Assembly (NCBI RefSeq): GCF_055900595.2
Contig: NZ_CM148325.1
Length of the DNA stretch: 64,000 bases
Direction: 5' to 3' (one strand)
The position numbers were made by a program. Shown here in pieces: positions 62,901 through 64,000 of this stretch (positions within the stretch are counted from its first letter, which is position 1; each line of letters opens with the position of its first letter).

Positions 62901-64000
62901 TTGTCGGCCTGAAGAACGCGTTTATGCGTCAGCGGATTCACACCACCCGCCGCCAGCGTCGCGCCAAGCGTTGCCAGTTCAATAGTATTGAGGAGCGTGG
63001 AGCACTGACGGGTATACACGTCACAGGCTTCCATTGCATCACAATAGAGATATCCGGCGGAGTACAGCAGCCAGGCTATGGCCCGGTTATGGAAGTTGGT
63101 TGTTTATTCCGACTGGTTGACTTCATCAGAGAGCGCTACCTGCTCACCAGCCAGTTGTTGTTGGATATGTAAAATTCGCTGCCAGCGTTGTTCGGCATTT
63201 TCAGCGTTAATCAGGCTGGTGGTGGCAATAGCGCCAGCATTTACCAGTGGCGAAAGCGGTTTGCCGCCATGCAACTCTAAGGCGATAACCGAGTTAAAGG
63301 GCAATCCGGTCGGGTCAGCGCCAATTTTGTCCTGTACCGCCTGCGGGCCGACATCTTCTAACGCGAGGGCTAACGTACAGACTTTTGAAATGGATTCCAG
63401 CGCAAAGCGGTAATCACTGTCACCCGCGCTAAAGACTTTACCATCGCAGGTCACGATAGCCACTGCCGCCAGTTGACTGGGCACATTCGCCAGAAAGGGA
63501 ATGTAATCGGCATTTTGTCCGCCGTTAAGTGAGTGAAATTGGGTGTAAGCCTGATCCACTGCCTGCTGTAATGTGTTTGCATCTAACATCTTTTGTTAAC
63601 TCCTTTTTATAGATGCGGGAGGGGATTCCTCACCCCGGTGCCGATTTTCAGGCATCCTGATTTAACTTAGCACCCGCGACTTAACTACAGGAAAACAAAG
63701 AGATAAATGTCTAATCCTGATGCAAATTGAGCCGATTTTTTAATCTTTACGGACTTTTACCCGCCTGGTTTATTAATTTCTTGACCTTCCCCTTGCTGGG
63801 GACAAAGAACTGCGTGGTGTAAAATAACACCACGCAATATCAATAAGTTACATAACCACTTTAACTCTCTACCTCCCTTTTTCCTCAAAATGTGGACACT
63901 CAATGGACATATCACATAGCGGATTATGCATCACAGCATCGCTTAAATAATCCGGCGAAAAATGCGCATAAGTCATTGTCTGAGATATATCTGCATGACC

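What the first reader, a model, noticed from the sequence alone, without database searches (positions are those of the whole stretch)
63781..64000. Sequence breakpoint inside the CueR operator of the copA promoter, with unidentified DNA beyond
The -35 hexamer and left arm of the CueR dyad (TTGACC TTCCCCTTGCTGG) are present at the expected distance upstream of divergent glsA, but the right arm (GGAAGG), the -10 and the copA start are not where expected. From 63800 the sequence reads GGGACAAAGAACTGCGTGGTGTAAAATAACACCACGC…, including an 8-bp inverted repeat GCGTGGTG/CACCACGC, and no copA-like ORF follows within the remaining 200 bp. This looks like an insertion or rearrangement endpoint that would uncouple copA from CueR, although cueR itself is intact in this window. 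I could not match the new sequence to IS or Tn termini from memory.
Basis: partly seen in the sequence, partly recalled or inferred. Interest (0 to 1): 0.65.

Follow-up and report, generated by a model that had tools for sequence, protein, structure and literature searches.

The report
Prophage attachment site in copA promoter
The breakpoint is the left end (attL) of a P2-like prophage that integrates into the copper-pump (copA) promoter and carries its own copy of the 20 bases it splits, so in every complete genome checked the promoter and its CueR operator are rebuilt at the prophage's far end; this is ordinary phage integration, but at a target site I could not find described.

Summary
E. 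coli homology stops exactly at 63799/63800, inside the CueR dyad of PcopA: 5402 of 5422 complete genomes have the uninterrupted site.

The DNA beyond is not an IS. It is the 3' end of a tyrosine integrase gene on the minus strand (stop 63869-71), with P2-type attachment-site anatomy:
- a terminator-like hairpin, 63811-36
- a perfect IHF consensus, 63838-50
- two arm-type Int sites 11 bp apart, 63891-909

In the five complete genomes with this same end, a ~35 kb P2-like prophage follows. It ends in a second copy of CTTGACCTTCCCCTTGCTGG joined to AAGGTTTAACC...copA. PcopA and the CueR operator are therefore regenerated at attR, and "uncoupling copA from CueR" is not supported.

Integrases 58-82% identical to this one sit beside the same core in Escherichia, Citrobacter, Rouxiella, Rahnella and Yersinia, and by flank similarity Kluyvera. 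Two metagenomic phage contigs carry the matching attP. Less similar integrases (≤53%) use other cores.

This is a new member of a known kind. The window's own attR lies beyond 64000 and is inferred.

The parts
63590..63779 (.). Host glsA-copA intergenic DNA up to the core. The glsA start codon is at 63587-89 on the minus strand.
   Evidence: 100% identical to many prophage-free E. coli genomes (hits H18-H30). Contiguous with copA in 5402 of 5422 genomes.
63780..63799 (.). Common core of attL, CTTGACCTTCCCCTTGCTGG. It comprises the PcopA -35 hexamer TTGACC (63781-86), the left arm of the CueR dyad ACCTTCC (63784-90), the 7-bp dyad spacer CCTTGCT (63791-97) and the first two bases (GG) of the right arm.
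   Evidence: The same 20-mer is repeated at attR in GF60 and in H1827/12. It is also present in two phage attP contigs: exactly in L004 and with one substitution in L181. Coordinates checked.
63809..63838 (-). Hairpin just downstream of int: 10-bp perfect stem at 63811-20 and 63827-36, 6-nt loop, 12 pairs with the extension. Probably the int 3' terminator or stabiliser.
   Evidence: Terminator-like call on the minus strand. Fold z-score -3.9. A 10-12 bp hairpin lies at about the same offset from the core (roughly 9-14 nt) in every related phage type, with a different stem sequence in each.
63838..63850 (+). IHF-consensus site TATCAATAAGTTA (WATCAANNNNTTR), lying between the core and the arm-type sites.
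   Evidence: Perfect consensus match. A match with 0-1 mismatch is found at the same offset in 4 of the 10 other loci examined (L003, L005, L007, L013) and none by that criterion in L004, L008, L047, L061, L090 or L058. By eye the closest sequenced phage has ATATCAACAACTTAA after its hairpin. Consensus only; binding was not tested.
63869..64000 (-). 3' end of the tyrosine integrase gene: the last 43 codons, ...GHADISQTMTYAHFSPDYLSDAVMHNPLCDMSIECPHFEEKGR*, with the stop codon at 63869-71. The gene runs off the window.
   Evidence: Translation. 63800-64000 is 100% identical to GF60, where the full 337-aa gene is annotated as a tyrosine-type recombinase/integrase. That protein hits PHROG 1 integrase at E 6e-68.
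63891..63909 (+). Two arm-type Int binding sites (P arm), TGTGGACA at 63891-98 and AATGGACA at 63902-09. They are direct repeats 11 bp apart inside the int coding end.
   Evidence: They match the P2-type arm consensus tgTGGaCa (PMC3448106). TGGACA-N5-TGGACA occurs once in the window against 0.01 expected. The same pair sits at +91 to +106 from the core in all related types. A matching pair lies at -47/-58 on the attR side.

Best explanation
Window 63780-64000 is attL, the integrase-proximal junction of a P2-like (Peduoviridae-type) prophage. The phage integrated by conservative site-specific recombination into an attB that lies inside the copA promoter.

The phage attP carries a 20-bp core identical to the host sequence CTTGACCTTCCCCTTGCTGG: the -35 hexamer, the left half of the CueR dyad, the dyad spacer and GG. 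Recombination within this core leaves one copy at each end.

At attL (the window), the core is followed by phage DNA in this order: the int terminator hairpin, an IHF site, the int stop codon, and two arm-type Int sites. This copy is a dead half-promoter with no right dyad arm and no -10.

At attR, about 35 kb away, the phage-borne copy of the core is joined to the host AAGGTTTAACC...-10...copA. PcopA and the complete CueR operator are thereby rebuilt, and only the DNA upstream of -35 is replaced by the phage P' arm.

Shown: the junction, the integrase, the site anatomy, the core duplication and rebuilt promoter in all sequenced relatives, and the attP form in sister phages.

Inferred: that the window's own genome has the same attR; that Int, IHF and an excisionase act as in P2; and that copA regulation is essentially unchanged.
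For: Junction and integrase:
- The junction at 63799/63800 is supported by about 5400 genomes.
- The integrase C-terminus, including the catalytic-Tyr motif, is in the window. The full-length homologue is PHROG 1 integrase.

Prophage in relatives:
- In GF60 the same end begins a 35-kb prophage. It encodes a C-type repressor, replication endonuclease, portal, terminase, GPO scaffold, P2-family capsid, gpM, baseplate V/W/J/I, tail sheath and tube, late control D and ogr.
- attR in GF60 is P' arm + the 20-mer + AAGGTTTAACC...copA ATG. All five type-1 lysogens cover this attR at 99-100% identity.
- A second type, with Int 82% identical, uses the same site with a 29-bp identity.

The clade and its attP:
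- Integrases 58-82% identical are always next to the same or a 1-2-mismatch core. Hosts include E. coli, another host with an Escherichia-type glsA-side flank, Citrobacter, Rouxiella, Rahnella and Yersinia, plus several contigs with cueR-proximal flanks, one identical to Kluyvera.
- Integrases ≤53% identical have other cores.
- Two metagenomic viral contigs (L004, L181) carry true attP, meaning P' arm, core, then hairpin and int.

Site anatomy: the hairpin and arm-site layout is conserved across all types and an IHF-like match is present in about half of them. It matches the published P2-type description (PMC3448106).

Independent acquisition:
- The window's host flank is only 93% identical to GF60, while the phage 201 bp are 100% identical.
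- The window's closest host relatives have an empty site.
Against: - Only 201 bp of the element are in the window. Its size, integrity and attR in this genome are not visible.
- No free or attP form of this particular (type-1) phage was found: none among 50,697 phage records and none in metagenome contigs.
- The GF60 copy has a disrupted tape-measure gene, so type 1 may be defective in at least some hosts.
- The strand-exchange positions within the core are not mapped.
- No expression data exist for copA in lysogens. The replaced upstream DNA contains a promoter-like match aimed at copA whose effect is unknown.
Confidence: 0.9

Rival explanations
1. One reading: an insertion or rearrangement endpoint that truly separates copA from its -35 and CueR operator. 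For example, a truncated or rearranged element in this genome could have lost attR, leaving copA copper-blind.
For: The window ends before attR, so the rebuilt promoter is not seen directly. Prophages at this site do decay: there are IS1- and IS4-disrupted remnants, and short remnants in Citrobacter (L058, L090).
Against: Every occupied site that could be read end to end keeps the core-AAGGTTTAACC-copA junction. This includes the decayed elements in E. coli and the two short Citrobacter amalonaticus remnants. In the IS1-truncated remnants the alignment likewise runs through the P' arm and core into copA. Loss of copA control would be counter-selected. The phage end in the window is 100% identical to intact 35-kb copies.
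Confidence: 0.06
2. Insertion of an IS element or transposon into the operator.
For: There is an abrupt loss of homology within a regulatory site. IS insertions upstream of genes are common in E. coli.
Against: - The first gene is a tyrosine integrase, not a transposase.
- The flanking repeat is 20-29 bp of pre-existing host sequence that is also present in free attP contigs, so it is not a target-site duplication.
- The element is a 35-kb P2-like phage genome.
- The site anatomy is arm sites plus IHF plus core.
Confidence: 0.01
3. Assembly chimera or natural promoter divergence in this lineage.
For: The junction lies 201 bp from the window end, and no read-level data are available.
Against: The identical junction occurs in five independently finished genomes, and analogous junctions occur in 12 more. 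The closest host relatives have the canonical contiguous promoter.
Confidence: 0.02

Closest known systems
Bacteriophage P2 Int/attP system (Peduoviridae), as described for P2-type phages in PMC3448106
   Same: - A heterobivalent tyrosine integrase gene lies next to attP, followed by a C-type repressor.
- There is a short core identical in attP and attB.
- Direct-repeat arm sites matching tgTGGaCa lie on both arms.
- An IHF-type site lies between the core and the int-side arm.
- Integration is into non-tRNA DNA.
- The late-gene set is P2-like.
   Different: - The core and the target differ: here the target is the -35 and CueR operator of PcopA.
- The integrase is below 60% identical to every integrase in 50,697 phage records. 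At the DNA level the int 3' end is about 72% identical to P2, pro483 and similar phages.
- I found no paper naming this attB.
Yersinia phage vB_YenM_42.18 (OM046624), the closest sequenced phage integrase
   Same: 53% Int identity. The layout is the same: arm repeats, core, hairpin, an IHF-like ATCAACAACTTAA, then the int end with two TGTGGAC repeats.
   Different: Its core region has no resemblance to the copA promoter 20-mer at up to 5 mismatches, so it lies outside the copA-targeting clade.
Prophages that integrate into a functional host sequence and carry a replacement copy (186 in a tRNA-Ile gene, HP1 in a tRNA-Leu gene, Fels-2/SopEPhi in ssrA; PMC3448106). From my own knowledge, e14 and phage 21 in icd do the same.
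   Same: The principle is the same. The attP core duplicates the part of the host element that is split, so the function is restored at one junction. The target is a strongly conserved sequence shared by many host species.
   Different: What is restored here is the 5' half of a promoter-operator (-35 plus half of a MerR-type dyad), not the 3' end of an RNA or protein gene. The restored copy sits at the junction distal to int.
'Active lysogeny' switch prophages (e.g. the Listeria comK prophage; my own knowledge)
   Same: The prophage sits inside a host regulatory or coding unit.
   Different: Those prophages inactivate the target until they excise. Here the target is rebuilt, so no switch is needed or implied.

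Membership tests
P2-type prophage attachment site (attL) with heterobivalent tyrosine integrase | A tyrosine recombinase gene lies adjacent to the junction, with the catalytic C-terminal motif. | tested here: met
   The window encodes ...GHADISQTMTYAHF... on the minus strand. The full-length identical-end gene in GF60 hits PHROG 1 integrase at 6e-68.
P2-type prophage attachment site (attL) with heterobivalent tyrosine integrase | The same short core is present at both prophage ends (attL and attR) and in attB. | tested here: met
   Met in the relatives: a 20-bp core in GF60, 29 bp in H1827/12, and all five type-1 lysogens. For the window's own genome only attL is visible.
P2-type prophage attachment site (attL) with heterobivalent tyrosine integrase | Arm-type direct repeats matching tgTGGaCa lie on both sides of the core. 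| tested here: met
   Sites at 63891-98 and 63902-09. P' arm sites at -58 and -47 in GF60 attR. The consensus is from PMC3448106.
P2-type prophage attachment site (attL) with heterobivalent tyrosine integrase | attP exists on a phage genome, with the core flanked by both arms. | tested here: inconclusive
   Found for two sister types (L004, L181). Not found for type 1 itself in phage records or in metagenomes.
P2-type prophage attachment site (attL) with heterobivalent tyrosine integrase | The element encodes a P2-like virion and replication gene set. | tested here: met
   GF60 annotation lists P2-family capsid, GPO scaffold, gpM, portal, terminase, baseplate, sheath and tube, late control D, ogr and replication endonuclease. 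These genes are not visible in the window itself.
P2-type prophage attachment site (attL) with heterobivalent tyrosine integrase | Int, IHF and an excisionase actually bind and recombine these sites. | not testable with these tools
   Requires EMSA or footprinting and in vivo or in vitro recombination assays.
IS / transposon insertion | A transposase, terminal inverted repeats and a short target-site duplication created on insertion. | tested here: not met
The gene is an integrase, not a transposase. The 20-29 bp repeat pre-exists in attP contigs.
Functional CueR-dependent promoter (MerR-type: -35, 19-bp spacer containing the full dyad, -10) | The complete dyad ACCTTCC-N7-GGAAGGT and a -10 hexamer lie 19 bp from the -35. 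| tested here: not met
   At attL in the window, the right arm reads GGGGACA and the -10 position reads AGAACT. No sigma-70-like promoter is called in 63400-64000, though that scan only allows 16-18 nt spacers. The full promoter is present at attR in the relatives.

The most novel reading that the evidence does not exclude
This integrase clade may have evolved to use the CueR operator itself as its recombination site. The two 7-bp dyad arms around a 7-bp spacer have the geometry of a tyrosine-recombinase core.

If so, Int and CueR (which sits on this operator with or without copper, from my own knowledge) would compete for or cooperate on the same DNA. Integration or excision, or copA expression in lysogens, would then become dependent on copper or CueR. 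The Int-bound P' arm and its promoter-like TGGACA-18-AATAAT lie just upstream of -35 and could contribute.

For: most sister attP sites keep 6-7 of the 7 bases beyond the core that complete the right dyad arm.

Against a crossover in the spacer: phage variants differ from canonical host sites at core positions 15-20, while positions 1-14 never vary.
Probability: 0.1. Interest if true: 0.6.

Novelty: new member of a known kind. Interest (0 to 1): 0.33.

Why it matters
For annotation, an apparent disruption of the copA promoter in this strain should not be scored as loss of copper regulation. It marks a prophage boundary, and copA should be sought about 35 kb on with its promoter intact.

For phage biology, it adds a defined attB to the P2-like repertoire. 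That attB is a 20-nt promoter-operator segment conserved exactly from Escherichia to Yersinia and even in some alphaproteobacteria. It also defines an integrase clade, at least 58% identical to this one, that tracks the site across genera.

This illustrates that phages can choose strongly constrained regulatory DNA, not only tRNA genes, as a stable and widely shared landing site, and repair it in the same way.

The site is rare in E. coli, occupied in 20 of 5422 complete genomes. It could serve as a compact, portable integration module.

Tried and rejected
Searches that found nothing:
- The reconstructed type-1 attP gave no match in 50,697 phage records, only about 72% matches to int 3' ends.
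- The exact type-1 attP junction gave no match in metagenome contigs.
- Literature searches combining copA, cueR, glsA or ybaS with P2-like, prophage or att sites found no paper describing this site. Karlsson et al. 2006 (PMC1482927), which might list it, is not held.

Mapping the strand-exchange region from natural heterologies:
- I found core variants in sister phages: A at position 17, and variants at positions 15/16 and 18/20.
- I found only two more attR sites, both canonical.
- No attL/attR pair from one lysogen with a heterologous host was available, so the crossover stays unmapped.

Other negative checks:
- Rfam on the prophage's ogr-attR cargo region gave nothing above threshold.
- attL is not a residual promoter: no sigma-70-like site was called.
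- The displaced right operator half is not elsewhere in the window.
- IS or transposon, natural divergence and chimera explanations were considered and rejected (see the rival explanations).

Full report
**1. What is in the sequence**

Window 63780-63799 reads CTTGACCTTCCCCTTGCTGG. This holds the PcopA -35 hexamer (TTGACC, 63781-86), the left arm of the CueR dyad (ACCTTCC, 63784-90), the 7-bp dyad spacer (CCTTGCT, 63791-97) and GG. From 63800 the sequence departs from E. coli.

- A megablast of 63590-64000 against 5426 complete E. coli genomes found a match in 5422. In all but 17, the match covers only query 1-210, that is up to 63799.
- A composite of the window's left side joined to a copA-side sequence is contiguous in 5402 of 5422 genomes, including a K-12 derivative.
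- The junction position, the missing right arm, -10 and copA, and the inverted repeat are therefore all confirmed.
- The repeat is a 10-bp perfect stem (63811-20 and 63827-36). Its fold z-score is -3.9 and it is called terminator-like on the minus strand.

**2. What the new DNA is**

The minus strand of 63869-64000 encodes ...GHADISQTMTYAHFSPDYLSDAVMHNPLCDMSIECPHFEEKGR*. This is the C-terminus of a tyrosine recombinase and includes the catalytic tyrosine motif.

Seventeen complete genomes carry an integrase at this junction. Five match at about 99% (all poultry isolates) and twelve at about 86%.

In strain GF60 the region beyond the junction is a 35-kb P2-like prophage. In order, it encodes:
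- int and a C-type repressor (PHROG 147)
- replication endonuclease, portal and terminase
- GPO scaffold, P2-family capsid and gpM
- lysis genes, baseplate V/W/J/I and tail fibre
- sheath and tube, late control D and ogr

The window's 201 phage bases are 100% identical to GF60. The four differences in 63590-64000 are all on the host side.

**3. The other end**

In GF60 the prophage ends ...AAATGGACACTACGTGGACACTGATTAAATAATCCTTTCTTAATCAGACTGTTAAAATG-CTTGACCTTCCCCTTGCTGG-AAGGTTTAACCTTTATCACAGCC...ATG(copA).

The 20-mer is therefore a direct repeat flanking the prophage. At attR it is joined to the host right arm, -10 and copA, which gives a complete PcopA and CueR operator.

- All five type-1 lysogens cover this attR at 99-100% identity, about 35 kb from attL.
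- The second prophage type (Int 82% identical) does the same, with a 29-bp identity TATTAATTT+core.
- Three further genomes hold an IS1-truncated remnant whose P' arm and copA side still align through the core.
- In total 20 of 5422 genomes have the site occupied, all by P2-like elements or their remains.

The claim that copA is uncoupled from CueR is not supported. cueR itself is intact at 36844-37248.

**4. Attachment-site anatomy**

Reading rightwards from the core in the window:
- the hairpin at +11
- a perfect IHF consensus, TATCAATAAGTTA (63838-50)
- the int stop codon (63869-71)
- two arm-type sites, TGTGGACA and AATGGACA, 11 bp apart (63891-909)

TGGACA-N5-TGGACA occurs once in 64 kb against 0.01 expected. 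The P' arm at attR carries a matching pair at -58 and -47.

This is the published P2-type layout: a core plus direct repeats of tgTGGaCa on both arms (PMC3448106).

The hairpin and arm-site arrangement, at the same offsets, is found in every related element examined, and an IHF-like match in about half of them. The hairpin keeps its position and stem length while its sequence differs completely between types. That argues for a structural role. I read it as the int 3' terminator or stabiliser, which is an inference.

**5. A clade with one target**

A scan of IMG/VR for the 20-mer gave 12 loci. A scan with an alignment of the integrases gave 80 loci.

- Wherever enough downstream DNA was present, integrases 58-82% identical to the window's type sat next to the same core or a 1-2-mismatch variant.
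- Integrases ≤51% identical had unrelated sequences there.
- The closest integrase among 50,697 phage records is 53% identical (Yersinia phage vB_YenM_42.18). It has the same layout but a different core.

Two metagenomic viral contigs are genuine attP: P' arm with arm sites, then core, then hairpin and int.
- L004 has the canonical core. Phage-type genes, not copA or glsA, lie on the far side.
- L181 has the variant CTTGATGG.

A scan of one genome per species found the exact 20-mer in native promoters of many Enterobacterales: Escherichia, Citrobacter, Klebsiella, Kluyvera, Raoultella, Enterobacter, Serratia, Rahnella, Yersinia, Xenorhabdus and others. Often it lies next to a divergent gene whose first codons read MNISDVAK, which I take to be cueR. 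It also occurs in some Rhodobacteraceae and Rhizobiales.

Lysogens were seen in Rouxiella silvae, Rahnella ecdela and Yersinia pekkanenii. Short remnants were seen in Citrobacter amalonaticus.

The target is thus an unusually conserved intergenic sequence, comparable in that respect to the tRNA and ssrA targets of 186-type phages (PMC3448106).

**6. Evidence of mobility**

- The window's host flank is only 91-93% identical to GF60 over 18 kb, while the phage end is identical.
- The window's nearest host relatives among complete genomes have an empty site.
- The same phage therefore entered different lineages at the same 20 bp. That is the signature of site-specific integration rather than shared descent.

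**7. Mechanism and open points**

Shown:
- the core duplication
- the rebuilt promoter
- the attP form in sister phages
- the conserved arm and hairpin layout, with an IHF consensus in the window and several other types

Inferred:
- P2-like Int, IHF and excisionase chemistry
- the window genome's own attR
- unchanged copA regulation

Not resolved: where the strands are exchanged.
- Most sister attP sites continue gAGGTTT or AAGGTTT after the core, so they nearly contain the whole CueR dyad. The dyad, with 7-bp arms and a 7-bp spacer, has the geometry of a recombinase core.
- Against a crossover in the spacer, phage variants differ at core positions 15-20 while positions 1-14 are invariant. Lysogens with a flank identical to Kluyvera carry the phage base at position 17, although the Kluyvera reference sites have the canonical base. 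This points to exchange further left.
- I could not obtain matched attL/attR pairs to settle the question.

At attL, the -10 position reads AGAACT and no promoter is called. The left copy is a dead half-site.

At attR, the replaced upstream DNA is A/T-rich like the original. It contains a consensus promoter match, TGGACA-18-AATAAT, aimed at copA and overlapping the Int arm sites. Its function is unknown.

**8. Novelty and verdict**

Integration with a restoring core is textbook. The particular target, the -35 plus CueR operator of PcopA, and the integrase clade that follows it were not found in the searchable literature or among sequenced phages.

I rate this a new member of a known kind. Interest is modest. 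The finding as posed, a breakpoint that uncouples copA from CueR, turns out to be an ordinary prophage boundary.

Noticed in passing
window 63104-63106 (minus strand), within glsA 62657-63589: glsA carries a premature stop, Q162* (CAA to TAA), relative to GF60. It splits the 310-codon gene into ORFs of 161 and 125 aa. No complete E. coli genome matches this 311-bp segment at 100%; the best is 99.7%. The nonsense allele therefore looks private to this strain.
   Followed up: partly
window 37248-61024 (minus strand): Between cueR (36844-37248) and ybaT lies an island that is absent from the two strains read across this interval (H1827/12 and 33-6). It holds ORFs of 395 and 721 aa (not examined), a 6335-aa ORF (40586-59590) and a 451-aa ORF (59669-61024). 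The 6335-aa ORF has internal repeats 72-75% identical and is 91% identical to GF60's 'Ig-like domain-containing protein'. The 451-aa ORF corresponds to GF60's 'TolC family outer membrane protein'.
   Followed up: partly
L002 13858-14861 (GF60 prophage, between ogr and attR): Three to four tandem units of about 203 nt, each ending in a strong intrinsic-terminator hairpin (TTTTGCCCGCCGGAAAGCGGGCATTTTTTT). There is no Rfam match above threshold and no annotated gene. They could be an array of small-RNA genes in the phage cargo region.
   Followed up: partly
L002 15214-15243 (P' arm of attR, + strand, about 27 bp upstream of the PcopA -35): A sigma-70-like match, TGGACA-18-AATAAT (10 of 12), points into copA and overlaps the two Int arm-type sites. 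The region has 3 promoter-like matches against 0.3 expected. Function is untested.
   Followed up: no
E. coli genome hits H1-H5 (Ch1, GF60, CM2, CS5L, LH50-c): All five complete genomes carrying the window's prophage type come from chickens or chicken meat. Carriers of the second type are mostly human isolates.
   Followed up: no
L023, L025, L028, L033, L037, L039, L043, L046, L049, L065, L066, L068, L075, L082, L093 and others: The exact 20-mer CTTGACCTTCCCCTTGCTGG, which includes the dyad spacer and not just the arms, also occurs in Rhodobacteraceae and Rhizobiales genomes. In most it is followed by AAG/AAC/AGG..., apparently as native MerR-type promoters. This is striking conservation across proteobacterial classes.
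   Followed up: no
L058 (two cores 1.55 kb apart) and L090 (two cores 2.85 kb apart), Citrobacter amalonaticus: attL and attR of sister elements lie only 1.6-2.9 kb apart. L090 holds a truncated int. L058 has no detectable int at tblastn E ≤ 1e-5. In L058 the attL copy keeps the full AAGGTTT, so it has a complete second CueR dyad without a -10.
   Followed up: partly
L114, L118, L119/L181, L121, L125, L134, L136, L141; also L142 and L149: Sister phages carry core variants: CTTGATGG (A at position 17, including a true attP contig), CTTGCGGT and CTGACTGG. Positions 1-14 of the core never vary. This is a possible handle for mapping the crossover.
   Followed up: partly
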